This document shows, one piece after another, positions 31,739 through 63,797 of a DNA stretch of 64,000 nucleotides. Each line of letters begins with the position of its first letter. Position 1 is the first letter of the stretch. Source of the stretch: Escherichia phage vB_EcoM_JN03; sequence record OR885871. One strand, written 5' to 3'. The translations under genes and the position numbers were made by a program. Under the pieces are notes generated by a model. It saw nothing but the letters and a program-made list of their open reading frames with translations. It made no database searches and was not told the DNA's origin.

Positions 31739-32161
31739 ATGAAGAAGTATATCGTTCTTATAACGGGTTCCCGTTCTATAACTGAGCGGGATAAAATATT
31801 TGCCAAATTAGATGAACTCTTAATCCCTCACGAGATAGAGACGTTTATTGAAGGTGAAGCAGTAGGTGTGGATCTGATATCCCGTGATTGGTGTGAAATC
31901 AATTATGTGCATATTACACCAATGCCGATTCCTCAAAATTACCATACGTTATATGGGAAAGGTGCGGGCAATCAACGTAACAAAGATATGCTGGACAAGG
32001 CTCTAACATTGGCGAAGCAAAAAGATCTTGAGGTCTTTGGAATTGCATTATGGGATGGTTCGTCTACTGGGACGCAAGACATGATCAAGCGCATGAAGAA
32101 AGCGGGAATAAATGTCAATATCACTCTCATGGGCAAACCCAAAACCAAACGATTGTTATAA
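31739..32161 (+). CDS. SLOG/LOG-like Rossmann-fold protein (DUF2493-like)
   Basis: N-terminal LITGSRS and downstream ALWDGSSTGTQDMIKR resemble the GGSR and PGGxGTxxE motifs of the Smf/DprA-LOG (SLOG) fold. Start uncertain (31694 or 31739). Confidence 0.45.
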   Translation: MKKYIVLITGSRSITERDKIFAKLDELLIPHEIETFIEGEAVGVDLISRDWCEINYVHITPMPIPQNYHTLYGKGAGNQRNKDMLDKALTLAKQKDLEVFGIALWDGSSTGTQDMIKRMKKAGINVNITLMGKPKTKRLL

Positions 32162-32191
32162 ATAAATTTGCCACCCATGAGGAGTTATACC

Positions 32192-41388: not shown

Positions 41389-42612
41389 ATGAAAGATAAA
41401 CCATATGACATCCCATATTGCGGTGTCCGTGAAACCAAAATCAAATCAGCCCATCCTATGTTAAGTTCATTCCACCGCCAGCTGGCATATGAATGGATGA
41501 GGGATCGTTATGCGATACATGTCAAGAAGGACGTGCAATGCCTTCCAGCGCCATGGACGGATAATCCGGTATTACGCCAAGTCAAGTTTTGTAACGTGCG
41601 GAGAGAGCACGATAGGCAGTCTCGAAATTTGATCAATAATATCATCCTCGATCAGGATCTCACGCTATCTGACAAAATGTTCAACTGTGTATTGTTCCGC
41701 ATGTACAACATGTGGGAACCTATACAGGCTTTGGGTGGTCCATGGACGATCGAAGAATTCGGAAACATAAATCTTGAATGGTGTCGAGATGTTCTTCAGG
41801 AATTCGAATCTAAAGGTGGCAAAGTTTTCACCAATGCGTTTAATACAGGCGGTCTGAAACAATGCCTGGCTTTCCCTGAACTAGTTGTCAACCACAAGGA
41901 GCAACGCTTTGGCGGCATGAAAGTAAAAGTCCATCGGGTTGGCGGTGTTATAGATGAAATGGATTACAAGGTTGCCAAGAAGCTGGCCGAAGATAATCCT
42001 GGTGAATACAAAATAGAAGGCTGGGAACCATACATGCCGATGCGAGTCATCCGCTCTTTGAAGGCATTCGTCAACAAACACCCTCATTACTTTGATCGCC
42101 TCAGGGAATTTAGCCGTCCCGACTCTGTTTACCAGGCGATGTATGACGACATTGAGGGGCTTGGACCATTCTTGGCATACCAGATTTGGGTTGATTTTAC
42201 ATACATCGATGAATATCCATTCAGTGAAAACCACTTCACTATCGCTGGTCCAGGTTGCCGTGCTGGTATCGATCTGTTATTTTTGGACAAGGACGGCATG
42301 ACGCATGAAGAATGCATATTCTGGGTTCGTGATCATCAAGATCAATTGTTCGCTCAGTATGGGTATAAACGTAATGAATTTTGGTCGGCAGAAGAACCGG
42401 AAGATCGTTGCATGAATGTTATGCAGCTGGAGAACATGTTCTGTGAACTTCAGAAATATACCCGCTGCGTTGAGGCGGTGATGCGCGGGGAGAAACCTCG
42501 AGGAAAGGTGGGGTATGACGGGAATGGCAGTGCGTATAAGCAACGTTGTGATGAAGTCGTCCTCAAACGTGGTTCCGTGAATCTTTTAGAACGTTTGAAG
42601 AAACCTGAATAA
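41389..42612 (+). CDS. Hypothetical protein (~407 aa), function unknown
   Basis: ATG with RBS gagagga; the ORF-track start at 41368 is a TTG inside the terminator. No confident motif. Confidence 0.5.
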   Translation: MKDKPYDIPYCGVRETKIKSAHPMLSSFHRQLAYEWMRDRYAIHVKKDVQCLPAPWTDNPVLRQVKFCNVRREHDRQSRNLINNIILDQDLTLSDKMFNCVLFRMYNMWEPIQALGGPWTIEEFGNINLEWCRDVLQEFESKGGKVFTNAFNTGGLKQCLAFPELVVNHKEQRFGGMKVKVHRVGGVIDEMDYKVAKKLAEDNPGEYKIEGWEPYMPMRVIRSLKAFVNKHPHYFDRLREFSRPDSVYQAMYDDIEGLGPFLAYQIWVDFTYIDEYPFSENHFTIAGPGCRAGIDLLFLDKDGMTHEECIFWVRDHQDQLFAQYGYKRNEFWSAEEPEDRCMNVMQLENMFCELQKYTRCVEAVMRGEKPRGKVGYDGNGSAYKQRCDEVVLKRGSVNLLERLKKPE

Positions 42613-51314: not shown

Positions 51315-51764
51315 ATGTTCCTTACATCCTTTATTGACTGGATGAATATCATAAATGGTCTGAGGATCCCTGTTGGGAACCTCGGGCTTTCTCGTTCTTC
51401 TATGCCGCAAATCGATGCCGACAAACAAGAAGATTTTCACAAATATCTTGAAGACAACGGCGTGTCCATAGATGCTGCGCAAGTACCCATCAAAATGCTT
51501 CGTCTTACCCAGAACGAAATCAATAAAATGAAGGTCTGGAAGATTATGAAGCAGATCAGAAATAAGAAGCCCATGGGTCGAGTTTGGGTGTCTTCTGACA
51601 ATTACGTTGTTGACGGGTCTCACCGATTTGTCGCTGCGTTGAACATGGACGGCAAACAGCGCATGAAGGTCTACAAAGTTGATTTGCCAGCGATGGAATT
51701 TGTTAAACTCGCTAAACAGTTTCAGGGTGTGCGATACAGAACGGTCAGCGATACCCGTTTCTGA
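51315..51764 (+). CDS. ParB/Srx-like nuclease-domain protein
   Basis: Motif VVDGSHRFVAALN resembles the ParB N-terminal domain core (DGxHR...A). RBS gaggtg. Confidence 0.5.
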   Translation: MFLTSFIDWMNIINGLRIPVGNLGLSRSSMPQIDADKQEDFHKYLEDNGVSIDAAQVPIKMLRLTQNEINKMKVWKIMKQIRNKKPMGRVWVSSDNYVVDGSHRFVAALNMDGKQRMKVYKVDLPAMEFVKLAKQFQGVRYRTVSDTRF

Positions 51765-54418: not shown

Positions 54419-54706
54419 ATGTCCGGCGTATGGTGTGATGTATTGTTGGTAAGATTTTCAAACGGGATGGATAATCAGATCATTTCATTCTTTTATCCTG
54501 TTCCCTTTTCTTCTATGGGTCTGACTGTCAAGCGCGTTCTTGACATAGAAGAAAAACTCAACACGATGCCGTATATGGCGCGACCACACGTGCTGGGTTG
54601 TGAACTGTTAAACGAAATGATGATTGACGAGAATCTTGTTGAAACAATTATCACGCGTGAACAGATGAAAACCATACTGTCTCAGGGAGAACCCCATGTC
54701 GAATAA
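54419..54706 (+). CDS. Hypothetical protein (95 aa)
   Basis: ATG with RBS ggaggtg, directly after the upstream stop. Confidence 0.45.
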   Translation: MSGVWCDVLLVRFSNGMDNQIISFFYPVPFSSMGLTVKRVLDIEEKLNTMPYMARPHVLGCELLNEMMIDENLVETIITREQMKTILSQGEPHVE

Positions 54707-55016
54707 ACCGTTTGAACTTAAATTTCGCGTTTGGCATATTCCCCAGGTTCCTGGGATCGCTTTTCATGTTGAGGTTCCAACATTTGAAGAAGCGCAGCGC
54801 CTGAAGAATACTCTGGCTGATTACGACCTGTTTCAGTATAACAATAACATCAAGCCGGATTATTGTAATGCTTCCGGCGTTCAAATATACCAACATGATC
54901 TGACTGAAGAAGATCTAAATGATATGGGTCTGGATGATCGTTGGGTTGATATCGAAGATATTGACGAACTCAACGATTATTTTGATCATCTGCGTAGCAC
55001 AGGGTGGGAAATATGA
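54696..55016 (+). CDS. Small acidic protein (106 aa)
   Basis: C-terminal half is strongly acidic (EEDLNDMGLDDRWVDIEDIDELNDYFDHL). Confidence 0.45.
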   Translation: MSNKPFELKFRVWHIPQVPGIAFHVEVPTFEEAQRLKNTLADYDLFQYNNNIKPDYCNASGVQIYQHDLTEEDLNDMGLDDRWVDIEDIDELNDYFDHLRSTGWEI

Positions 55017-55222
55017 TCGGGTTAATCCGTTATCTGTTCATATTCGTAATTTCAACATTCATTTTATTTTTCTTTTTCAAATACTTGAAAGAGACTAAAA
55101 TCTACCGAAGTAAACGTTGGCGTAAACGGGTGAGGGTAACTTTCCTGCTGCTGATTTCTTCGGTTACAATAACTGCACTCACATTGGGTGCTTATATTTA
55201 CATTTTTGAAGGAGTACATTGA
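55004..55222 (+). CDS. Small two-TM membrane protein (72 aa)
   Basis: Two hydrophobic helices separated by a basic loop (KRWRKRVR); stop overlaps the start of the SPFH gene. Confidence 0.5.
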   Translation: MGNMIGLIRYLFIFVISTFILFFFFKYLKETKIYRSKRWRKRVRVTFLLLISSVTITALTLGAYIYIFEGVH

Positions 55223-56013
55223 TGTTCAAGAAACTGGTATTTGGCGCAATTATGGTCCTAGCAGCAAGCATTCTTTCGGGCTGCGGCGGTGTTATCGATG
55301 AAGGAAACGTCGGTGTTCGAACCCAATGGGGTGAAGTGGACATGAACCCTGTAACCGCAGGTATCTACACCAGTTTCGTTTCAAGTGTAGATGTCTATAC
55401 GACTAAAGAAGCCGTCGTGAGTCTGACGAAAATGACGCCAAAGGCCAAAGACAACCTGACCTTGGAAGATCTGGATGTGGATGTTTATTACACACCGAAC
55501 GTCGCAAAGGTTCCGTGGTTCCATACCAAATTTGCAGGTCAGAGCGCTGAACTCGGTGACGGCACGATAGCGGTGGGATTCAACCTGGTTAAAACCGCCG
55601 CAGCATCCTCAACGATGGACGCCGTTTCCTCTTTGGATTCTATGACAATTCACACCCAACGGGCTGAGTTAGAAAAGATGATCAAGGAACGCACCCAGCA
55701 GCAATTGGAAACTGCTGCGCCTGGCATGTTCACAATCACACGTGTGTTGGTGAAAAAGGCGCTGACAGATCCTTCGATTGAGCAATCTATCCGTGATAAT
55801 GTCATGGCCGACAAACGTTTGGATACAGCAAGAAAGAACGTTGAAATTCGCGACCAAGAAGCCAGGGCGAATCAGAAACTGACGACATCTCTGACACCTG
55901 AATATTTACAACACGAATATAACATGGTGTTGCAATCTTGCGCCAACAGCGGGAAATGTACTCTGATTGTTGATGGTTCTGGCTCAAGTAAAATGCTAAA
56001 CGTCGGCAAATAA
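55222..56013 (+). CDS. SPFH/band-7 (stomatin/prohibitin-like) domain lipoprotein
   Basis: Lipoprotein signal with lipobox LSGC. VIDEGNVGVRTQWGEV start resembles SPFH domain proteins, followed by a coiled-coil-like region. Confidence 0.55.
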   Translation: MFKKLVFGAIMVLAASILSGCGGVIDEGNVGVRTQWGEVDMNPVTAGIYTSFVSSVDVYTTKEAVVSLTKMTPKAKDNLTLEDLDVDVYYTPNVAKVPWFHTKFAGQSAELGDGTIAVGFNLVKTAAASSTMDAVSSLDSMTIHTQRAELEKMIKERTQQQLETAAPGMFTITRVLVKKALTDPSIEQSIRDNVMADKRLDTARKNVEIRDQEARANQKLTTSLTPEYLQHEYNMVLQSCANSGKCTLIVDGSGSSKMLNVGK

Positions 56014-56096
56014 ACGCTTTATTCAATAGTATTTGTTAGGTAAGCTGTAGTCCTCTTGTAGTGAAACATCGTAAACAACCAACTGGAGTAATCCGA

Positions 56097-56375
56097 ATGA
56101 ACCGTACTGATTTTATCGCCCACATCGCCCAAACCCAGGGTATGACCAAAGGCGAAGCAGAGAAGATCGTGGCATCCTTTATCAACGGCGTGAAAACTGC
56201 AGTCGCAGCTGGCCAATCTGTCCAATTCGTAGGCTTCGGCGCGTTCGAAGTTAAACATCAGGAAGCGCGCACTGGCCGCAACCCGCTGAACGGACAACAG
56301 ATCCAGATCGAAGCGAAAAATGTAGTTAAATTCAAAGTCGGTGAAGGTCTGAAAGCTGCTGCCAACGGCCAGTAA
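56097..56375 (+). CDS. HU/IHF-family histone-like DNA-binding protein
   Basis: MNRTDFIAHIA...VQFVGFGAFEVKHQEARTGRNPLNGQQIQIEAKNV aligns closely with E. coli HU ([35 protein letters not shown]). Confidence 0.85.
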   Translation: MNRTDFIAHIAQTQGMTKGEAEKIVASFINGVKTAVAAGQSVQFVGFGAFEVKHQEARTGRNPLNGQQIQIEAKNVVKFKVGEGLKAAANGQ

Positions 56376-56424
56376 TCACATCCAGAGCGGTCGCGCCTAG
56401 CACAGCGTGTTAGGCTAAAAGAGA

Positions 56425-56453
56425 AAGCCGAGGTTAATGCCTCGGCTTTTTCG
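56425..56453 (+). terminator. Rho-independent terminator (aaagccgaggttaatgcctcggcttt + ttcg)
   Basis: Strong hairpin plus T-run after the HU-like gene. Confidence 0.7.
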
Positions 56454-56500
56454 TTGTTGGGATTCGGGTAAACTATAACAGAATCCAAAGGAGGAACAAC

Positions 56501-58222
56501 GTGACAGCATTTAATCAACACCGAAAGGCGATTGACGCCATAGGCCGTAAGGTTCCTATGGAAGAAATACAACGCCTTGCCAAAGATGAATTCCCATATG
56601 ACAAAGCGAACCCAGGCCAGATGGAATGCATCGTCGAAGCCATAGATGCGCTTATCAACAAAAAGGTTAAACATGTCATCATTGAAGCTCCGACAGGCGT
56701 CGGTAAATCTTTGATTGGCACTACCATTCATAAAGTGATTCGTCATCTGGTTTTACAGGCTGATCCTTATGGGCAATTTCGCACTTCTATCAGCACCCCG
56801 ACCAAAGGTCTGCAAGATCAGTATGCTGCTGAAAAAGCAGTATCGATCGATATCCTGAAAGGCAAGAAGAATTATCGTTGCCACGTACATCCAGATGTGT
56901 ATTACAATGCTGTCCAATGCCGTATAGCATGCCGTGACGGGCATTGTAGCAAACGCCGCTGTCCTTATGTACAGGCGCGTAATTTGTGGACGGATATTTC
57001 ATCATTGCGTTGTACTAATGCTGCCATGATGATCGAAATGTGTACAACAATCTGCATGAAGCCCGAAAACCGTTCCGATATGCTGATCCTTGACGAGTGC
57101 CATAAAATGCCCTCTACGCTCCTAGAGCACACGATCATGGAATACAATACAAAGGCCGTGGAGGGGCTGCGTTCTATCCCTGAGGGCAAGGAGATCGTCT
57201 CTACCATTGGTGATATCGTAGAACGCACCAAGGACTATGTCCTGGGCAAGTTATATTCTTTGTCTGGTGAACTACATTCAATGTTTGAAGACCTCCATCT
57301 CAAAGTAGAAAATTTGTTGGAAGTCCTTGAAGAATTGGTCGAAGATGATCGCTTGAGTGAAAGCCAAGTGATGAAACTCGCAGACATTATAGATGTCTTG
57401 CATAACTTGAGTGATTATTGCGGTATTATGTCACAAACCCAAGCAAGTACATTTATTGTGCAAGAAAAGGGGGAAGATTTTATCCGGTTTAAACCTGTTA
57501 TGCCTTCTGATGTAAGTGAATTCGGGTTATTCCGAAAAGCCGATTATCACGTTCATATGTCAGCAACGATCTGTGGTATAGATTCTTATGCTCGTTCATT
57601 GGGTATTCGACAGGGGGATTATCATTCCATTCAGATCGGCAACCCTATCCCAATTGAAAACAGAAAAGTCAACTATATGCCCATAGTGAAGATGACTAAC
57701 AATATGGGCGACTATGAAATGAAAAGGTTGACGGAATATATTGATGAAATAATCGCGTTCCACCCAGGTCAGTCCGGCATTATCCATACAGTGAGTTATG
57801 ATCGCGCCTTGGCAATACAAAAATTTAGTAAATATCAGAATTTTATCCATGTTCCGCGCACCCGAAAGGCGTTGATGGATATTATGGAAAATGCTTTTAG
57901 AACAAAGTCCCCATGTGTCATTGCCAGTCCGGCTATGGAAGAAGGTTATGATTTCAAAGGGGATTACAGCCGTTTCCAAATACTGATCAAAGTCCCTTAT
58001 GATTATCTGGGTGATCCACTGATAGCACATATCAATTCAGTGGATCCGTCGGCATACTTCCGCAACGCAGTACTGCGCATTGTTCAAATGTGTGGGCGTT
58101 CGGTCAGGGGTGTTGATGACTGGGCTGCGACATACATCATTGATTCATCCTTTGAATCTCTTATGATGCGCAACCCAGAATTCTTCCCAACCTGGTTCAC
58201 CGATGCAGTGTTTGAGGTTTAA
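56501..58222 (+). CDS. DinG/XPD-like (Rad3-family) SF2 helicase with Fe-S cysteine cluster
   Basis: GTG start with RBS aaaggagg. Walker A APTGVGKS, DECH box (ILDECHKM), Cys-rich insert (CHVHPDVYYNAVQCRIACRDGHCSKRRC). Confidence 0.7.
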   Translation: MTAFNQHRKAIDAIGRKVPMEEIQRLAKDEFPYDKANPGQMECIVEAIDALINKKVKHVIIEAPTGVGKSLIGTTIHKVIRHLVLQADPYGQFRTSISTPTKGLQDQYAAEKAVSIDILKGKKNYRCHVHPDVYYNAVQCRIACRDGHCSKRRCPYVQARNLWTDISSLRCTNAAMMIEMCTTICMKPENRSDMLILDECHKMPSTLLEHTIMEYNTKAVEGLRSIPEGKEIVSTIGDIVERTKDYVLGKLYSLSGELHSMFEDLHLKVENLLEVLEELVEDDRLSESQVMKLADIIDVLHNLSDYCGIMSQTQASTFIVQEKGEDFIRFKPVMPSDVSEFGLFRKADYHVHMSATICGIDSYARSLGIRQGDYHSIQIGNPIPIENRKVNYMPIVKMTNNMGDYEMKRLTEYIDEIIAFHPGQSGIIHTVSYDRALAIQKFSKYQNFIHVPRTRKALMDIMENAFRTKSPCVIASPAMEEGYDFKGDYSRFQILIKVPYDYLGDPLIAHINSVDPSAYFRNAVLRIVQMCGRSVRGVDDWAATYIIDSSFESLMMRNPEFFPTWFTDAVFEV

Positions 58223-58986
58223 TAACCCGCAATAAACGATAAATGGCACTTGATATTTGGTTCAAGTGTCGTTATCGTGATAATCATATTGTCCACATCT
58301 TGGCTGAAAGATATATTTGCGATCGGTTTGGTTTGAACATGATTATACAGGCTATAAATCAGATCTTCACCACGATAACCGATTTTGCCATCAGTGTCCT
58401 GCCAATGACCGAGGGTAGACTCTCGAGCGTGTACTCGGAATTCGACCATATGAAACAATGCTTTTGGGATGGTCTTCAGTATGCTGGTCCCAACAACCGG
58501 AATATCAATAGAAGAGTCGTTGGAGTTTCCTTCATAAACAGATTCCCAACCAAATATTGGATCACCTCCTGCCACAGGAGTTCTTTTCCAGTATTGGAAT
58601 TCTGGGTTGCCCGAAGCGTTCTTTTGTAGGAGGATTACTTCACCGCCTTCAAAATTGGAAGTGTCTATATCGTCCCTTGCTAATAAATCTGCCGGAGAAC
58701 CAATAAATTTCCAAGTTTCGCGATCTAAAATAGACTTATAATAATCGGTGAATACGTTGCTGTCGTTAGCTGCATTGATTGCGTCTTTAAGACCTTCACC
58801 TGTGACCATCTCATTAAGTTTTAGCCACATGTTTTTGACAGCTGACGCAGCTGCGACTTGACCTTCAGTCCCACCCGCCGTGTAGTCATAAATGATGTCC
58901 AGCTTTTGTATGGAATCATTTATAGACAAGAGCAAACGCTCAATTTCTGGGGCGGTCAGACTGAAACGATATGCGCGTTCTGACAT
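58219..58986 (-). CDS. Hypothetical protein (255 aa, minus strand)
   Basis: Minus-strand RBS gaggaa; a TATAAGTA-like box lies upstream on the minus strand. No motif recognised. Confidence 0.5.
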   Translation of the reverse strand: MSERAYRFSLTAPEIERLLLSINDSIQKLDIIYDYTAGGTEGQVAAASAVKNMWLKLNEMVTGEGLKDAINAANDSNVFTDYYKSILDRETWKFIGSPADLLARDDIDTSNFEGGEVILLQKNASGNPEFQYWKRTPVAGGDPIFGWESVYEGNSNDSSIDIPVVGTSILKTIPKALFHMVEFRVHARESTLGHWQDTDGKIGYRGEDLIYSLYNHVQTKPIANISFSQDVDNMIITITTLEPNIKCHLSFIAGY

Positions 58987-59028
58987 GATTCGTTCCTCAT
59001 CGATAAAACCAGTTTGGGATACTTATAC

Positions 59029-59556
59029 ATGATTGAAATATACACTGACGGGGCATCGTCCCCTCAGAAGACACGAGCCGCTGGTTGGGCATTTGCCATC
59101 AGTCCAATCACTGGAGAGCAATGGAAAGTGTTTTATGGGTATTTACCCCCGCCGTCAACGAACAATATAGCTGAGTTACTCGGGGTTATAAACGCAATGA
59201 AGATCCTATGGAAATTCTCTAATTGCGGTGAACGCTGCATTCCCCCAGCCCGCATCATATCCGACAGCCAATATGTTATCAATAGCGTTTTGGAGTGGCG
59301 TCGTAAATGGGAATATGAAGGAATGCCGCCTAAGAACACAGAACTTCTGCTCGAGTTGTTCGATTATTATGACAAAGTTTGTTCAATTTGTGAACTTGAA
59401 TTAAAATGGGTGAAAGGTCATGCAGGAACGATGGGCAACGAAATTGCGGATCAGTGGAGCGTTAGAGCCAAAGAAGATAGTTCAATGGTTCTTGAAAATA
59501 ACCGTTTCTCGGTCAAGAAAGTCGTTGGTTCTTTCAATGAATTCATTGGTATTTGA
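59029..59556 (+). CDS. RNase HI-type ribonuclease H
   Basis: IYTDGAS, GWAF, NNIAELLGVINAM and KGHAGTMGNEIADQ are the canonical RNase HI catalytic blocks. Confidence 0.85.
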   Translation: MIEIYTDGASSPQKTRAAGWAFAISPITGEQWKVFYGYLPPPSTNNIAELLGVINAMKILWKFSNCGERCIPPARIISDSQYVINSVLEWRRKWEYEGMPPKNTELLLELFDYYDKVCSICELELKWVKGHAGTMGNEIADQWSVRAKEDSSMVLENNRFSVKKVVGSFNEFIGI

Positions 59557-59567
59557 GGATTATCACG

Positions 59568-60359
59568 ATGGGTATGAATTTTGTAGACAGGGGTGATAAC
59601 GTCACCAAATATTTCACAGACGAAGATAATGACCGTGTTGTTGGAATATTGAGAGATTGGATTCCGGCTCGCAAAAAGGCTTTGGCCGAAGGAACACCCC
59701 TACCAAGAATCCCCAATTATGTGGCCATGAATGTTCAGATGATTATTAAGAACATGAGTATGCGCTACAACTATCGTGATTATCCATACCGCGAAGACAT
59801 GGTCAGTGAGGCCGTTGTCAACATCCTTCGTTACCTCCATACATTTGACGTCAGTCATATCGGCAAGAAAGGAAAAATCAATTTCTTCTCTTGGGTAACG
59901 ATGTGCGCCGACCGTTCATTCGCCAAGAAACTCACCAGTGAAGAAGAACACAATTATATCAAGTTGCGTTCATTTGAAGAAGCAGGTGGTTTCGCTGCAT
60001 TATCAGATGACCCAGACTTCCAGCAACAGACATTCGTAGACAGCACTGGTATAACAATGGACTTCCGTGAGCGTATCGGAAATTTTGAAACTAAGAAAGA
60101 AGCCCAGCGCGAAAAGGAACGCCAAAAGCAAATCGCCATCAAAGAAGAGGAAAAGAATAAGAAAATTCCTCGCGGTATACTTCAATGTCTCACAAAGAGT
60201 GAAAATACCATTACCGCCGACGCCGAAGATAATTCAGACTATGACTTCGGCTCTACTCAATTCAATCTGGAAGACGAAATATGTTCTATGGAACCAGATT
60301 GGGAAGAAGCAAAGAAACGAGCATTAGAACGGGAGCAACAAAATAATGGCGATTGCTAA
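59568..60359 (+). CDS. gp55: Late sigma factor gp55 homolog
   Basis: NYRDYPYREDMVSEAVVNILRYLHTFD resembles T4 gp55 [29 protein letters not shown]. Start at the ATG with RBS gagga. Has an acidic/basic C-terminal extension. Confidence 0.65.
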   Translation: MGMNFVDRGDNVTKYFTDEDNDRVVGILRDWIPARKKALAEGTPLPRIPNYVAMNVQMIIKNMSMRYNYRDYPYREDMVSEAVVNILRYLHTFDVSHIGKKGKINFFSWVTMCADRSFAKKLTSEEEHNYIKLRSFEEAGGFAALSDDPDFQQQTFVDSTGITMDFRERIGNFETKKEAQREKERQKQIAIKEEEKNKKIPRGILQCLTKSENTITADAEDNSDYDFGSTQFNLEDEICSMEPDWEEAKKRALEREQQNNGDC

Positions 60360-61461
60360 AATTGGCGATTTACATATCGGGAGCCGTAATGGTTCCCGTT
60401 ACGTTCGAGAATTCATAAAGAATTATCTCATCAATTATTTTATTCCAGAATTGGTTGACGCCGATATTAAAGAAGTGTGGCAATTTGGTGATACGTTTGA
60501 TGTTCGCAAATTCATGTATGGTCGTGATAAAGATTGGTTGAAAGATGAATTGACGCCAGCGCTGCGCAAAGCAGGTATTAAATGGAATGGCATCGTAGGC
60601 AACCATGATATCACGTTAGAAGAGTCCAATCGCATTAACTGGCCTTCTTATCTTAATGAATTGGCACCAGATGTTTATCATTATTACAGTGAACCAACTG
60701 AAGTAATGATTGAAGGTGTCAAGACCCTCCTACTGCCGTGGATTAACAAAGAGAACTATGATGCGTCCATTAAAGCGATACAAGATACAGACGCCAAGTA
60801 CTGTTTTGCGCATCTGGAGTTGGCAGGGTTCAAAATGTACCAGTCCTCTGTATGTGATAAAGGTCAGATCGACTTGGCGCTCCTTTCGAAATTCGAGCGC
60901 GTGGATACCGGACATTTCCATACCCGTTCGATGGAAGGTAACATTCAGTATATTGGGACTCCTTATCATCTTACCTGGGAAGACCACAAAGACGGGACGA
61001 ACCGAGGATTCTATGTAGACGACATGAATGGCGGGGAATTGTTTATCCCCAACAACGAACAACAAACGTTGTTCCGGTTCGTGGAATACGACTACACACA
61101 AATGTCTTCTGATACTGAAGGTAATTGGATCGACCCCGATTGGTTAAACAATGTTTTGGGCATTGAAGGGCAAATCGTTAAGGTGATTGTACAGAACCGT
61201 GACAATGCCAAGCATTATGAAAAGTTCTGTGACGCATTGAAGCGCTGTAAATGCATCGATTACAACTTCATCGATCGGACGATTACTGTTGCTTCCGAGA
61301 AGGTAGAAGTCACTGAAGAGATGGTGGCCACTGATGCTGTGGAAGTCCTGAAGAAAGATATCCGCGCCGCCAATAATATCCAGCGCCCTGAAAATGTTTG
61401 CAAATTAGCAGAACAATTCTATAATGCTGCCCAACAACGCCTGAACACATTGGATGCATAA
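60346..61461 (+). CDS. gp47: Recombination nuclease subunit gp47 (Mre11/SbcD-like)
   Basis: Phosphoesterase motifs GDLHIG, GNHD and a downstream GHFH motif; N-terminus aligns with T4 gp47 MKILNLGDWHLG. Confidence 0.85.
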   Translation: MAIAKIGDLHIGSRNGSRYVREFIKNYLINYFIPELVDADIKEVWQFGDTFDVRKFMYGRDKDWLKDELTPALRKAGIKWNGIVGNHDITLEESNRINWPSYLNELAPDVYHYYSEPTEVMIEGVKTLLLPWINKENYDASIKAIQDTDAKYCFAHLELAGFKMYQSSVCDKGQIDLALLSKFERVDTGHFHTRSMEGNIQYIGTPYHLTWEDHKDGTNRGFYVDDMNGGELFIPNNEQQTLFRFVEYDYTQMSSDTEGNWIDPDWLNNVLGIEGQIVKVIVQNRDNAKHYEKFCDALKRCKCIDYNFIDRTITVASEKVEVTEEMVATDAVEVLKKDIRAANNIQRPENVCKLAEQFYNAAQQRLNTLDA

Positions 61462-61463
61462 TA

Positions 61464-63797
61464 ATGAGCAATGTAGACCTATTATCAAAATTTGGTTCGC
61501 TGTTGAAAGAAGCGGACACTCCTGTTTCTGTTGAAGCACCATTTGAAATCCGTGGGGAAATTACCCACAAACTGACTTTCCATCGCGGTCGCGCTAAAAA
61601 CTTCCGTTCCATCGGTAATGAATTCATGGAAATTGATTACCAACGCAATTCGGCAACCTTGGTTACATCCGATGACAATGGGGCGGGCAAATCTACAATG
61701 CTTGTTTGGCTGTTGTTCTTCGTTCTGTATAATGACACATACAGCAAGAAAGAAAAGAAAGCCGGATTAGTCAATTCCCAAAACAAAAAGGAATGCGTGG
61801 GTGAAGTTGAGTTCTCTACTCGCGGAAGTGAATGGAAAGTCCGTCGTGGTATCAAACCTGATTTCGTAGAAGTCTATCAGATGGTAGACGGTGAGTGGAA
61901 GAAGGTCGTGAATGATGCGGCCAAAGCCGACATGAACAAATATATCGTGAACCTGATTGGCGTAGACCAGAAGATGTTTGAGAACTCCCTGGTTCTGGGC
62001 AAAGAGAAGTTCATCCCATTCACGGAAATGTACACTGCCGACCGTCGCGCTATGGTAGAGACAATCTGGGATTTGGGGTTCTTCAGTCTGATGAATGAAG
62101 ATGTAAAAGCATCTATCAAGACAGTAACGAATGAACTCACGACGGTCACCAATGATTACGCCTTTCATGATGTGAATCTAAAAGGCCAGCAAGCGCAGTT
62201 GGAACAGATCAATAATTCCAATGCGATGATCCAGCAACAATCTGCGGATATTCTTGTCCAAGAGAAGGAACGTCTGAATAGCCTGAATTCAGATATCGGC
62301 GCAGTGCAGGAACAACTGACAGAGTCCCGTGCTCAAGACTCTAAATTGGAATCAGAATTATCAGATGTTCGAAATAGACTGAATGCCGAAATGAAAGGGG
62401 ATATCGATGCCATCAATGAAGAGTATGCGGCCAAAATCCAAGCGGTTCAGGATGAGGCTGATACCAAGGCTGAAGACTATGAGCGTATCGAGGTGTCTGA
62501 TGGCGAACGTTCATTACAAGAAATTCGGGAGAGAATGGCGGTAGTCGCGGAACGTAAAAATGATCTGGTCAGCCAACGGAATGCTAACCTGGATGAACTG
62601 AACAAAGCATTAGCGCGGCGTCAGCAGGGTGAGAACTTCCGTATCAAATTCGTAACAGAAATGGAAGGACATGAATCTGCCATCAAACGTTTCCACGATA
62701 TGGGCACTTGCCCTACGTGTACGCAATTAGTGTCGGACGATACCAAATCACGCATTGAAAGTCAATATTATCCACAAATCAGTGAACTGACTGACAAGAT
62801 TCTTCAGGTTGATACAGCCCTAGAAGAAGTGAATTCCCTGATTGAGAATTACAATGTCAGAGATTCAGAATTATCTTCTCAGATTTCGGTTATTGACAAA
62901 GAACTGGATGCTTTGCGCAATGAAATCCGAGAAGCGGAATCAGCGATCGCTACATTAAAACGCGACATCCAAGGATTCTATGATGTCGCTGCTGTTGAGA
63001 AAACATCTTTACAGCGGGAACAACAGTCCAAAATTAACGACGTCCTCAAGGCCGTAGACACCCGTTACGAAGATATCACGACGTCAATCCGTCAAGCGCG
63101 TGAGCAGCTCTCTAAGAGTATCAACGACACGGCTGATAAACTCACCAGCCTGAAATCACGCCGTGCCCCTCTGGAGGCATCCATTGCCGATTTAGAGCGT
63201 AAATTGGCGGTTAAGCCGACACCAACTGACGCCCTGGAAGGAGAGATCGCTCGCATCACGGCATTAATGGAAGATCTGAATGCGCGGCGCGTAGAGTTGG
63301 ATGAGAAATTGCAAGACCTGAACCATCTTCTGTTCTTCCTAAAAGATGATCAGACCAAGGCTCGAATTATCAGCCTGTATTTGCCTTTCCTCAATAGTAA
63401 AATAAACGAGTATCTTGAAGCACTCAATATGTTCTTGGATATTGCTGTTGATGATACATTTGAAATCACCATGAGCGCTGCAGGTCGTAAAGGGCAAAGC
63501 ATCTTCTCGTTATCTACTGGTCAGCGTAGTCGCCTGAACCTGGCTGTGACATTAGCTTTACGAGATGTTGCAAACCTCAAGGCGTCGGTGCAATGTAACC
63601 TGTTTGTGCTAGATGAAATCCTTGAGAACATGAGCGAGCGCGGCGTACAAGAATCGGTTGAGATGCTGAAGCATAAATTTGGCGGGAACAATCTGTTCGT
63701 TATCAGTCAACGCGAGCAGGAATTCCAAGAGTATTTCCAACACAACATCCGTTATGGTCTGCGTAATGGCATGACTGAAGTGATTAAGAAGGATTGA
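61464..63797 (+). CDS. gp46: Recombination ATPase subunit gp46 (Rad50/SbcC-like)
   Basis: Walker A DDNGAGKST, long central coiled coil with CPTC zinc hook, signature LSTGQRSRLNLA, Walker B LFVLDEILE. Confidence 0.85.
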   Translation: MSNVDLLSKFGSLLKEADTPVSVEAPFEIRGEITHKLTFHRGRAKNFRSIGNEFMEIDYQRNSATLVTSDDNGAGKSTMLVWLLFFVLYNDTYSKKEKKAGLVNSQNKKECVGEVEFSTRGSEWKVRRGIKPDFVEVYQMVDGEWKKVVNDAAKADMNKYIVNLIGVDQKMFENSLVLGKEKFIPFTEMYTADRRAMVETIWDLGFFSLMNEDVKASIKTVTNELTTVTNDYAFHDVNLKGQQAQLEQINNSNAMIQQQSADILVQEKERLNSLNSDIGAVQEQLTESRAQDSKLESELSDVRNRLNAEMKGDIDAINEEYAAKIQAVQDEADTKAEDYERIEVSDGERSLQEIRERMAVVAERKNDLVSQRNANLDELNKALARRQQGENFRIKFVTEMEGHESAIKRFHDMGTCPTCTQLVSDDTKSRIESQYYPQISELTDKILQVDTALEEVNSLIENYNVRDSELSSQISVIDKELDALRNEIREAESAIATLKRDIQGFYDVAAVEKTSLQREQQSKINDVLKAVDTRYEDITTSIRQAREQLSKSINDTADKLTSLKSRRAPLEASIADLERKLAVKPTPTDALEGEIARITALMEDLNARRVELDEKLQDLNHLLFFLKDDQTKARIISLYLPFLNSKINEYLEALNMFLDIAVDDTFEITMSAAGRKGQSIFSLSTGQRSRLNLAVTLALRDVANLKASVQCNLFVLDEILENMSERGVQESVEMLKHKFGGNNLFVISQREQEFQEYFQHNIRYGLRNGMTEVIKKD

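What the first reader, a model, noticed from the sequence alone, without database searches (positions are those of the whole stretch)
56501..58222. DinG/XPD-like Fe-S helicase in a T4-type replication/recombination neighbourhood
Walker A, a DECH box and a four-Cys cluster between them define a Rad3-family 5'-3' helicase with an Fe-S domain. This is not one of the classical T4 helicases (Dda, gp41, UvsW). It sits between the HU-like gene and RNase HI / gp55 / gp47 / gp46, suggesting a role in recombination-dependent replication or R-loop processing together with the RNase HI.
Basis: partly seen in the sequence, partly recalled or inferred. Interest (0 to 1): 0.5.

Follow-up and report, generated by a model that had tools for sequence, protein, structure and literature searches.

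The report
Phage XPD/DinG-type iron-sulfur helicase gene

Summary
An ORF at 56501..58222 (+), 573 aa, starts at GTG behind a strong AAGGAGG ribosome-binding site. It carries Walker A (63-70), DECH (198-201) and all other SF2 helicase motifs. Of the eight cysteines between Walker A and DECH, four (C127, C140, C149, C154) are 98-99.5% conserved in 217 relatives of 27-49% identity.

The window is a Kuttervirus (Ackermannviridae), 99% identical to published phages where the gene is already called "DNA helicase" or "ATP-dependent helicase".

The proposed partnership with RNase HI is not supported:
- A gene on the opposite strand lies between the two.
- The gene order holds only within Ackermannviridae and close allies.
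- The two genes have different distributions across phages.

These phages have gp41-like and UvsW-like helicases but no Dda. The best guess, which is inferred, is a 5'-3' accessory replication/recombination helicase that fills the Dda role. The finding is ordinary, with low-to-moderate interest.

The parts
56501..58222 (+). Coding sequence of the XPD/DinG-family helicase (573 aa, stop codon included)
56488..56494 (+). Shine-Dalgarno sequence AAGGAGG, 6 nt upstream of the GTG start
   Evidence: Read directly from the sequence. The N-terminal 19 residues are conserved in relatives.
56591..56620 (+). Q-motif region (F31...NPGQ40), upstream of Walker A
   Evidence: F31, G39 and Q40 are invariant in 32 homologues. 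Some public annotations that start at Met41 cut this region off.
56687..56710 (+). Walker A / motif I, APTGVGKS (residues 63-70)
   Evidence: G68 and K69 are present in 217 of 217 relatives.
56879..56968 (+). Predicted Fe-S module: C127-x12-C140-x8-C149-x4-C154-P-Y156
   Evidence: The four cysteines are invariant in 32 sequences and present in 212-216 of 217. Y156 is Y in 213 and F in 4. The median span from first to last cysteine is 28 residues. In the HMM alignment C127, C149 and C154 fall on DinG C120, C199 and C205, and C154 falls on Rad3 C191.
57092..57103 (+). Walker B / motif II, DECH (residues 198-201)
   Evidence: D and E are present in 217 of 217 relatives and H in 214 of 217. Position 200 varies: C 130, A 59, S 16.
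57107..57535 (+). Insertion between motifs II and III (about residues 203-345), predicted Arch-like domain with two long helices (256-280 and 287-312)
   Evidence: Secondary structure of the AF2 model. Full-length structural alignments to DinG and XPD. The distance from DExH to SAT is 123-202 residues across the family, median 155. The boundaries are approximate.
57560..57568 (+). Motif III, SAT (residues 354-356)
   Evidence: S in 211, A in 193 and T in 211 of 217.
57893..58198 (+). Helicase_C_2 region (residues 465-566), including motif V (S476...D488) and motif VI, QMCGRSVRG (529-537)
   Evidence: Pfam PF13307, 46.1 bits against a cut-off of 25.3. Q529, G532, R533 and R536 are present in 217 of 217 relatives.
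56424..56449 (+). Terminator-like hairpin (AAAGCCGAGG-TTAATG-CCTCGGCTTT, followed by a T-rich tract) between the HU gene stop and the helicase start
   Evidence: It suggests the helicase is not simply co-transcribed with the HU gene. No sigma-70-like promoter was found in the remaining 50 bp.

Best explanation
The gene encodes a compact (573 aa) superfamily-2 DNA helicase of the XPD/Rad3/DinG family. It belongs to a large, mainly viral clade (PHROG 2488) and is a conserved core gene of Ackermannviridae phages.

Shown here:
- All SF2 motifs (Q, I, Ia, II, III, IV, V, VI) are intact.
- Four conserved cysteines form a short module inserted between motifs Ia and II.
- A helical Arch-like insertion lies between motifs II and III.
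- The predicted fold matches DinG and XPD along its whole length.

Inferred from what is established for this family:
- The four cysteines hold a [4Fe-4S] cluster.
- The enzyme moves 5'-3' on single-stranded DNA using ATP. The strand passes through the pore between helicase domain 1, the Fe-S module and the Arch, and the Fe-S module acts as the wedge that splits the duplex.

Inferred from context:
- The phage has gp41-like and UvsW-like helicases but no Dda.
- Related viruses also place this gene among DNA-metabolism genes.
- The helicase therefore most likely serves as a monomeric 5'-3' accessory helicase in replication, recombination-dependent replication or repair. It would clear obstacles or unwind D-loops and other branched intermediates, the role Dda has in T4.
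For: Family identity:
- Pfam Helicase_C_2 is above its gathering score.
- The A1 profile against PDB finds DinG at 6.3e-18, then Rad3, CHL1, archaeal XPD, FANCJ and human XPD. These are the 15 best hits.
- NCBIfam's best hits are DinG, YoaA, dinG_rel and rad3.
- Foldseek's first 43 hits are all DinG, XPD, CasDinG or Hna. The best is 6fwr, E = 1.3e-25, TM 0.66.

Fe-S module:
- The four cysteines and Y156 are conserved in 98% or more of 217 divergent relatives.
- They align with known DinG and Rad3 ligand positions.
- A family review states that the Fe-S domain lies between Walker A and Walker B and is required for helicase activity (PMC3378879).

ATPase competence: all catalytic motif residues are invariant.

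Role:
- UvsW-like, gp41-like and gp59-like genes are present elsewhere in the genome.
- T4 Dda has no homologue in the whole Kuttervirus genome (best E = 0.48).
- Dda homologues (2,186 records) include only 49 Salmonella phages and no Dickeya among the ten most frequent names. The XPD-like helicase occurs in 165 Salmonella and 19 Dickeya records.
- In a Rhizobium phage the gene sits among primase, exonuclease and DNA polymerase genes.
Against: - No biochemistry exists for any member of this clade in the searchable literature. Cluster binding, polarity and substrate are therefore all inferred.
- The cysteine geometry in the model could not be measured because coordinates are not exposed. Four cysteines within 28 residues could bind zinc instead.
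- The Pfam model for the XPD-type N-terminal half (DEAD_2) does not hit this protein and hits only 3 of 32 relatives.
- Curated DinG, YoaA and Rad3 cut-offs are missed by a wide margin.
- The Dda-replacement idea rests on absence at BLAST sensitivity and on coarse organism counts, not on a per-genome tally.
- No transcription-timing or essentiality data were found.
Confidence: 0.8

Rival explanations
1. One reading: the helicase works with the neighbouring RNase HI as an R-loop or RNA:DNA-hybrid processing pair. The helicase unwinds hybrids and RNase HI degrades the RNA, for example to regulate origin R-loops or to resolve transcription-replication conflicts.
For: - E. coli DinG is proposed to unwind R-loops and to help replication across transcribed regions (PMC2770101 abstract; PMC3378879).
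- CasDinG unwinds RNA/DNA hybrids (PMC10450177 abstract).
- The two genes lie within 1 kb of each other here.
- This order is kept down to 34% helicase identity in Vibrio phage YC and in K364.
Against: - The genes are not in one operon. A convergent minus-strand gene (58219..58986) lies between them.
- In Aeromonas phage TSW001 six genes intervene.
- phiW-14, Rhizobium TM40 and Halorubrum HRTV-8 carry the helicase with no RNase H within 6 kb.
- RNase HI homologues are in 887 records with a different taxon profile.
- The shared order extends to gp55, gp47 and gp46, so it looks like inherited gene order rather than a two-gene module.
- RNase HI has a simpler role in removing Okazaki primers. No T4-type FEN 'RNase H' is annotated in the genome. 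This last point is an inference.
Confidence: 0.12
2. The four-cysteine module binds zinc, or is purely structural, rather than holding a [4Fe-4S] cluster. The protein would still be an XPD-fold motor but not an iron-sulfur enzyme.
For: - The module is far shorter than in characterised family members. It spans 28 residues, against about 50-86 in SaXPD, human XPD and E. coli DinG (from prior knowledge; the DinG positions agree).
- The family tolerates loss of the cluster. CasDinG has a 'vestigial FeS' domain (PMC10450177 abstract).
- The Pfam DEAD_2 model does not recognise this region.
Against: - Three of the four cysteines align exactly with DinG cluster ligands.
- The C-P-Y...A-R signature after the fourth cysteine is shared with Rad3, FANCJ and DinG.
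- Near-absolute conservation of exactly four cysteines across more than 200 divergent sequences mirrors the family pattern.
- Family members that lost the cluster also lost the cysteines.
Confidence: 0.12
3. The helicase is mainly a counter-defence or conflict factor rather than a replication or recombination enzyme. It would act as a DinG-type motor like those used in type IV CRISPR and Hna systems, turned against host immunity or competing elements.
For: - The best curated profile outside PHROGs is PADLOC PDLC01439, 'typeIV_DinG; CAS-IV-A associated', E = 3.7e-50 and end to end.
- Structural neighbours include CasDinG, type IV-A DinG and Hna.
Against: - No Cas or other defence genes flank it.
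- It is a syntenic core gene across a whole phage family, unlike fast-turnover accessory anti-defence genes.
- Only 1 weak hit was found in 72,556 plasmids, where type IV systems live.
- The true Csf4 models score poorly: 8.5e-7, and TIGR03117 at 12.8 bits against a cut-off of 400.
- Its neighbours in other viruses are DNA-metabolism genes.
Confidence: 0.05

Closest known systems
E. coli DinG (PDB 6fwr) and bacterial DinG/YoaA helicases
   Same: - SF2 core with a four-cysteine module inserted between motifs Ia and II and an Arch insertion between motifs II and III.
- The last three cysteines are closely spaced and followed by C-P-Y/F..AR, as in DinG (C194-x4-C199-x5-C205).
   Different: - 573 aa against 716.
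- Only 12 residues separate the first and second cysteine, where DinG has about 73.
- 57.7 bits against the 598-bit equivalog cut-off, and YoaA 54.3 against 680.
- About 15-17% identity in structural alignments.
- Encoded by a virus, and largely absent from the cellular genomes (8 loci found) and plasmids (1 weak hit) scanned.
Archaeal and eukaryotic XPD/Rad3 (PDB 3crv, 2vsf/4a15, 5fmf; TFIIH subunit)
   Same: - Same four-domain plan: helicase domain 1, Fe-S, Arch, helicase domain 2.
- Helicase_C_2 domain present.
- The fourth cysteine aligns with Rad3 C191 in the CPY motif.
   Different: - TIGR00604 rad3 scores 27.4 bits against a cut-off of 246.95.
- The Fe-S module is much shorter.
- Pfam DEAD_2 is not detected.
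- There are no TFIIH-type partners in the phage.
CasDinG / Csf4 of type IV CRISPR-Cas, and PADLOC profile PDLC01439 ('typeIV_DinG, CAS-IV-A associated')
   Same: - Compact DinG-type proteins of about 575-600 aa.
- PDLC01439 matches end to end at E = 3.7e-50.
   Different: - Characterised CasDinG has a vestigial Fe-S domain (PMC10450177 abstract), whereas this protein keeps all four cysteines.
- Csf4 equivalog models are not met.
- No Cas genes are nearby.
- Essentially absent from plasmids.
Phage T4 Dda (SF1B 5'-3' helicase)
   Same: - Proposed role only: a monomeric 5'-3' accessory helicase in a T4-type replication and recombination system.
- Complementary distribution: Straboviridae carry Dda, and Ackermannviridae carry the XPD-like helicase and no Dda.
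   Different: - No sequence similarity (E = 4.3 over the helicase region).
- Different superfamily and fold, and no Fe-S module.
- This is analogy, not homology.
Annotated viral homologues (PHROG 2488; 'Rad3-related DNA helicase' of Halorubrum tailed viruses; 'DinG' of Aeromonas phage TSW001; gp070 of Delftia phage phiW-14)
   Same: - Same clade, aligned over the full length at 28-100% identity.
- Same four cysteines.
- The product in this window is 100% identical to the NCBI protein 'DNA helicase [Salmonella phage SenASZ3]' (P0001).
   Different: Nothing substantive. This is a member of that clade. Names in the records range from 'hypothetical protein' to 'DinG'.

Membership tests
XPD/Rad3/DinG family of SF2 Fe-S helicases | SF2 helicase core with intact motifs Q, I, Ia, II (DExH), III, IV, V and VI | tested here: met
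   Motifs located. Catalytic residues are invariant in 32 homologues and in 217.
XPD/Rad3/DinG family of SF2 Fe-S helicases | Four conserved cysteines in a domain inserted between Walker A and Walker B (definition in PMC3378879) | tested here: met
   C127, C140, C149 and C154 are present in 212-216 of 217 relatives. Three of them align with DinG ligands C120, C199 and C205.
XPD/Rad3/DinG family of SF2 Fe-S helicases | Arch domain inserted in helicase domain 1 between motifs II and III | tested here: met
XPD/Rad3/DinG family of SF2 Fe-S helicases | Pfam Helicase_C_2 (PF13307) above its gathering score | tested here: met
   46.1 bits against a cut-off of 25.3. All 32 relatives match.
XPD/Rad3/DinG family of SF2 Fe-S helicases | Pfam DEAD_2 (PF06733) covering the N-terminal Fe-S/Arch half | tested here: not met
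   No hit at E <= 0.01 for this protein, and only 3 of 32 relatives hit. The N-terminal half is too divergent and too compact for that model. The fold evidence covers this region instead.
XPD/Rad3/DinG family of SF2 Fe-S helicases | Actual binding of a [4Fe-4S] cluster | not testable with these tools
   Needs purified protein (UV-visible, iron and sulfide content, EPR). The model coordinates are not exposed, so not even S-S distances could be measured.
XPD/Rad3/DinG family of SF2 Fe-S helicases | 5'-3' translocation and unwinding polarity | not testable with these tools
   Inferred from family membership only.
E. coli-type DinG (NCBIfam NF008729 equivalog) | Score above the curated cut-off of 598 bits | tested here: not met
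   57.7 bits.
YoaA (NCBIfam NF053712 equivalog) | Score above the curated cut-off of 680 bits | tested here: not met
   54.3 bits.
Rad3/XPD (TIGR00604 subfamily) | Score above the curated cut-off of 246.95 bits | tested here: not met
   27.4 bits.
CasDinG / Csf4 (type IV CRISPR-Cas) | Match to Csf4 equivalog TIGR03117 (cut-off 400 bits) and a position next to csf genes | tested here: not met
   12.8 bits. No Cas genes are annotated in the region. PADLOC PDLC01439 ('associated' DinG) does match at 3.7e-50, but it has no curated cut-off and no locus context here.
T4 Dda (SF1B) | Sequence similarity to T4 Dda | tested here: not met
   tblastn E = 4.3 over the helicase region, and best E = 0.48 in the whole genome.
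PHROG 2488 (phage 'DNA helicase') | Full-length match to the family profile | tested here: met
   E = 1.7e-265, residues 19-573 against profile positions 2-579 of 579.

The most novel reading that the evidence does not exclude
The Ackermannviridae helicase represents a virus-specific 'minimal XPD' clade. It has the smallest Fe-S module known in the family (about 28 residues from first to last cysteine ligand). It has displaced the SF1B helicase Dda as the 5'-3' accessory helicase of a T4-type replication and recombination machine. The phage's DNA replication would then depend on the host's iron-sulfur cluster assembly, and the protein would be a small, tractable model for how the cluster supports unwinding in XPD-type enzymes.
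Probability: 0.3. Interest if true: 0.45.

Novelty: new member of a known kind. Interest (0 to 1): 0.25.

Why it matters
As it stands, the result mostly improves an annotation. A gene labelled generically as "DNA helicase" or "ATP-dependent helicase" (or "hypothetical protein") in hundreds of Vi01-like phage genomes can be called an XPD/DinG-family helicase with a predicted iron-sulfur module.

Several further points follow:
- Many Ackermannviridae are therapy and biocontrol candidates, so knowing their core replication proteins has practical value.
- If the cluster is real, replication of these phages depends on host Fe-S assembly, which would be a testable vulnerability.
- The very short Fe-S module would make this a convenient minimal model for XPD-type helicases, whose human relatives (XPD, FANCJ, RTEL1, DDX11) are disease genes.
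- The complementary distribution with Dda is a small but clean example of one helicase type replacing another in T4-like replication systems.

None of this overturns current understanding.

Tried and rejected
1. Functional coupling with RNase HI. I compared neighbourhoods in six increasingly distant viruses and the phage-wide distribution of RNase HI. The link is lineage-level gene order only, so I rejected it as evidence of coupling.

2. A conserved small partner gene next to the helicase, by analogy with YoaA-chi. All-against-all BLAST of the flanking small ORFs from six viruses gave no hits between them. Rejected.

3. CasDinG or another defence role. The PADLOC hit prompted a plasmid search, which gave 1 weak hit, and a check of the neighbours, which include no Cas genes. 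Judged unlikely.

4. Promoter assignment.
- No sigma-70-like site lies in the 50 bp between the hairpin and the start codon.
- The T4 late-promoter motif TATAAATA occurs once in 64 kb, against 2.1 expected.
- Expression timing is therefore unresolved.

5. Literature on phage XPD/DinG helicases, or on Ackermannviridae transcription and essential genes. Only generic annotations turned up and no functional work. The review of Fe-S proteins in viruses (PMC13255074) does not mention phage helicases.

7. Measuring the cysteine geometry in the model was not possible because coordinates are not exposed.

8. The alternative start at Met20 (ATG at 56558) has only a weak ribosome-binding site. The start at Met41 used in some records removes the invariant Q motif. 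Both were rejected in favour of GTG at 56501.
Full report
**What is at the coordinates**

The ORF list shows an open reading frame at exactly 56501..58222 on the + strand, 573 aa, starting with GTG.
- A strong Shine-Dalgarno sequence (AAGGAGG, 56488-56494) lies 6 nt upstream.
- The first 19 residues are conserved at the amino-acid level in relatives down to about 50% identity. The GTG start is therefore well supported.
- An internal ATG at codon 20 has only a weak ribosome-binding site.
- A start at Met41, used in some public records that give a 533-aa product (P0012; the PhiSH19 table), would remove F31, G39 and Q40. These residues are invariant in homologues.

**Motifs**

Read directly from the translation:
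- Walker A, APTGVGKS, residues 63-70.
- DECH, residues 198-201.
- SAT, residues 354-356.
- QMCGRSVRG, residues 529-537.

Eight cysteines lie between Walker A and DECH (127, 140, 144, 149, 154, 171, 181, 185). The four-Cys cluster is therefore not self-evident from this one sequence.

**Where the window comes from**

The stretch 55000-61500 is 99.2% identical to Salmonella phage vB_SenA_SM5 and 98.5-99% identical to many other Kuttervirus genomes (Ackermannviridae, the Vi01-like phages). In all, 243 phage records cover at least 80% of it.

In those records the gene is annotated "DNA helicase", "ATP-dependent helicase" or occasionally "hypothetical protein". The product is 100% identical to the NCBI protein "DNA helicase [Salmonella phage SenASZ3]".

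Published genome papers on these phages list it as "ATP-dependent helicase". The 2011 PhiSH19 paper lists its Pfam assignment as "None".

**Are the cysteines conserved?**

- In a 32-sequence alignment spanning 32-100% identity, C127, C140, C149 and C154 are invariant and the other cysteines are not.
- An exhaustive search of 1.84 billion cluster representatives found 5,541 relatives at E <= 0.001 and 1,046 at E <= 1e-30, mostly 520-600 aa long.
- In a MAFFT alignment of 217 of these (27-49% identity to the query), the four positions are cysteine in 216, 212, 214 and 216 sequences. Y156 is Y in 213 and F in 4. C144, C171, C181 and C185 are not conserved.
- The commonest spacing is C-x11-C-x8-C-x5-C. 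The query has C-x12-C-x8-C-x4-C. The median span from first to last cysteine is 28 residues.
- The catalytic residues of motifs I, II, III and VI are invariant or nearly so.

**Which helicase family?**

- Pfam gives Helicase_C_2 (PF13307, the C-terminal domain of XPD/DinG-type helicases) above its gathering score.
- A single-sequence search of PDB gave only weak hits, but all were to DinG, FANCJ, Rad3/XPD or CHL1.
- A profile of the 32-sequence alignment gave DinG at 6.3e-18, Rad3 at 4e-12, then CHL1, archaeal XPD, FANCJ and human XPD. These were the 15 best hits.
- In those alignments C127, C149 and C154 fall on DinG C120, C199 and C205. C154 falls on Rad3 C191, within the shared C-P-Y..(A)R signature. 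The assignment of those DinG and Rad3 cysteines as cluster ligands comes from prior knowledge.
- NCBIfam's best hits are DinG, YoaA, dinG_rel and rad3, all far below the curated cut-offs (57.7 against 598 bits; 54.3 against 680; 27.4 against 247).
- An AlphaFold2 model built on the alignment is confident (mean pLDDT 89.9, pTM 0.89).
- Foldseek against PDB returns DinG, XPD, CasDinG or Hna for the first 43 hits. The best is E. coli DinG 6fwr at E = 1.3e-25 and TM 0.66. UvrB and RecQ follow at about 1e-10.
- The model's secondary structure shows the family's layout: a short insertion holding the cysteines between motifs Ia and II, and a 143-residue, largely helical insertion between motifs II and III where the Arch domain sits.
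- One negative result: Pfam's DEAD_2 model for the XPD-type N-terminal half does not hit this protein and hits only 3 of 32 relatives.

In summary, the protein is a member of the XPD/Rad3/DinG family in architecture and fold. It is somewhat closer to bacterial DinG/YoaA than to XPD, and it is not an orthologue of any curated subfamily.

**A mainly viral clade**

- It matches PHROG 2488 ("DNA helicase") end to end at E = 1.7e-265.
- tblastn finds it in 497 phage records: Ackermannviridae of enterobacteria and Vibrio, Delftia phage phiW-14, Rhizobium phages, Halorubrum and Haloarcula tailed viruses (there annotated "Rad3-related DNA helicase"), Prevotella Lak megaphages and others.
- A pattern-based scan of one genome per species for 185,579 species returned eight loci, mostly MAG contigs and haloarchaeal genomes.
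- 72,556 plasmids gave one weak hit.
- The viral structure library holds about 14 proteins with this fold, including one from Sulfolobus virus Kamchatka 1.
- PADLOC's profile PDLC01439 ("typeIV_DinG; CAS-IV-A associated") matches end to end at 3.7e-50, while the Csf4 models proper score poorly. No Cas genes are nearby.

**The neighbourhood and the RNase HI idea**

Three things weaken a specific helicase-RNase HI partnership.
- A minus-strand gene (58219..58986, PHROG 3833, annotated "putative structural protein") lies between them and overlaps the helicase stop codon by 4 nt. The two are therefore not in one operon.
- The order helicase...RNase H-gp55-gp47-gp46 is kept in Vibrio phages YC (34% helicase identity) and K364 (47%), and more loosely in Aeromonas phage TSW001. 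It is absent in phiW-14, Rhizobium phage TM40 and Halorubrum HRTV-8. In TM40 the helicase lies among primase, exonuclease, dCMP deaminase and DNA polymerase genes. This is what inherited gene order looks like.
- RNase HI homologues occur in 887 phage records, including T5-like, ICP1 and jumbo phages that do not appear among the helicase hits.

No conserved small partner gene flanks the helicase across distant viruses.

**What else the phage has**

The annotated genome of the close relative phage moki has a UvsW-like helicase, a gp41-like primase-helicase, a gp59-like loader, UvsX, UvsY, gp32, gp46/47 and a RuvC-like resolvase.
- T4 Dda finds nothing significant anywhere in the Kuttervirus genome (best E = 0.48; positive control E = 0).
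- Across phages, Dda homologues (2,186 records) include only 49 Salmonella phage records and no Dickeya among the ten most frequent names. The XPD-like helicase is in 165 Salmonella and 19 Dickeya records.
- This suggests, but does not prove, that the XPD-like enzyme fills the 5'-3' accessory-helicase role that Dda has in T4.

**How it most likely works**

- Shown: an intact SF2 ATPase core, a conserved four-cysteine insertion, an Arch-like insertion, and an XPD/DinG fold.
- Inferred from the family (review PMC3378879; abstracts): the cysteines hold a [4Fe-4S] cluster that is needed for unwinding but not for ATPase activity. The enzyme moves 5'-3' on ssDNA that threads between helicase domain 1, the Fe-S module and the Arch.
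- Inferred from context: an accessory role in replication, recombination-dependent replication or repair.

My confidence is about 0.95 that the protein is an XPD/DinG-family helicase and about 0.8 that it binds an Fe-S cluster and moves 5'-3'. It is roughly 0.3-0.4 for the Dda-like role and about 0.1 for the specific RNase HI/R-loop pairing.

**Transcription**

A terminator-like hairpin (56424-56449, followed by a T-rich tract) lies between the HU gene and the helicase. No sigma-70-like promoter was found in the remaining 50 bp. No transcriptome or essentiality data were found.

**Novelty and verdict**

However, the gene is a known, annotated core gene of a well-sequenced phage family. Relatives are already labelled "Rad3-related" or "DinG" in some records, and the family has a PHROG.

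What appears to be undescribed, within the searchable literature, is any functional or structural study of this viral clade and its very short Fe-S module.

I rate it a new member of a known kind, with low-to-moderate interest (0.25).

Noticed in passing
window 58219-58986 (- strand): A 255-aa gene convergent with the helicase overlaps its stop codon by 4 nt. It matches PHROG 3833 (unknown function, E = 4e-165), has no Pfam or PADLOC hit, and is annotated 'putative structural protein' in relatives. A minus-strand gene occupies the same position in the Vibrio phages YC and K364, but I did not test whether those genes are homologous to this one.
   Followed up: partly
window 56424-56449: A perfect 10-bp-stem hairpin (AAAGCCGAGG-TTAATG-CCTCGGCTTT) followed by a T-rich tract lies between the HU-like gene and the helicase. 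It looks like an intrinsic terminator, possibly working in both directions. No sigma-70-like promoter lies in the 50 bp that follow.
   Followed up: partly
window 56501-56620, compared with public records (PhiSH19, Klebsiella phage T751): Some public annotations give the helicase as 533 aa, starting at Met41. This removes the invariant F31/G39/Q40 Q-motif region, so it is a probable start-codon mis-call.
   Followed up: yes
Public records that match window 55000-61500, e.g. OR844944.1, 'Enterococcus phage Efm 3-10', 38.5 kb: A record labelled as an Enterococcus phage holds a 100% identical copy of the Kuttervirus RNase HI gene. Two 'Enterococcus' records and one 'Pseudomonas' record also match the 6.5-kb region. 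These are probably contaminated or mislabelled entries.
   Followed up: no
whole window; single match at 32157-32164: The T4 late-promoter motif TATAAATA occurs only once in 64 kb (2.1 expected by chance), although the phage has a gp55-like late sigma factor. The late-promoter consensus of these phages must therefore differ from T4's.
   Followed up: partly
window 59553-60359 (gp55-like gene): The late sigma factor homologue is 264-268 aa long. The PHROG 234 profile (181 positions) aligns only to residues 17-212. The remaining C-terminal tail, rich in lysine and acidic residues, has no counterpart in the profile.
   Followed up: no
window 55000-61500 compared with Se_EM4, SeKF_19 and 3384-D8 and the PhiSH19 table: Some close relatives carry about 720 extra bases in this block. 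In PhiSH19 a putative homing endonuclease gene lies between gp55 and RNase H. That insertion is absent from this window.
   Followed up: no
window 55219-56013 and 54696-55016: Just upstream of the HU gene lie an SPFH/Band-7 lipoprotein gene (Pfam Band_7, 1e-12; PHROG 200) and a gene annotated 'superinfection exclusion protein' in relatives. They form a membrane-associated pair within an otherwise DNA-metabolism stretch.
   Followed up: no
window 41491-41901 and 51330-51749: Genes that flank the helicase in distant phages have homologues elsewhere in this window. phiW-14 gp072 matches at 27% identity (E = 1.6e-7) and Vibrio phage K364 gene 0029 matches at 49% (E = 4e-43). This shows rearrangement of a shared gene pool.
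   Followed up: no
helicase protein against PADLOC: PADLOC profile PDLC01439 ('typeIV_DinG; CAS-IV-A associated') matches the phage helicase end to end at E = 3.7e-50. That profile therefore seems to describe this compact viral DinG type rather than Csf4 proper, and it could produce false 'type IV CRISPR' calls on phage genomes.
   Followed up: partly
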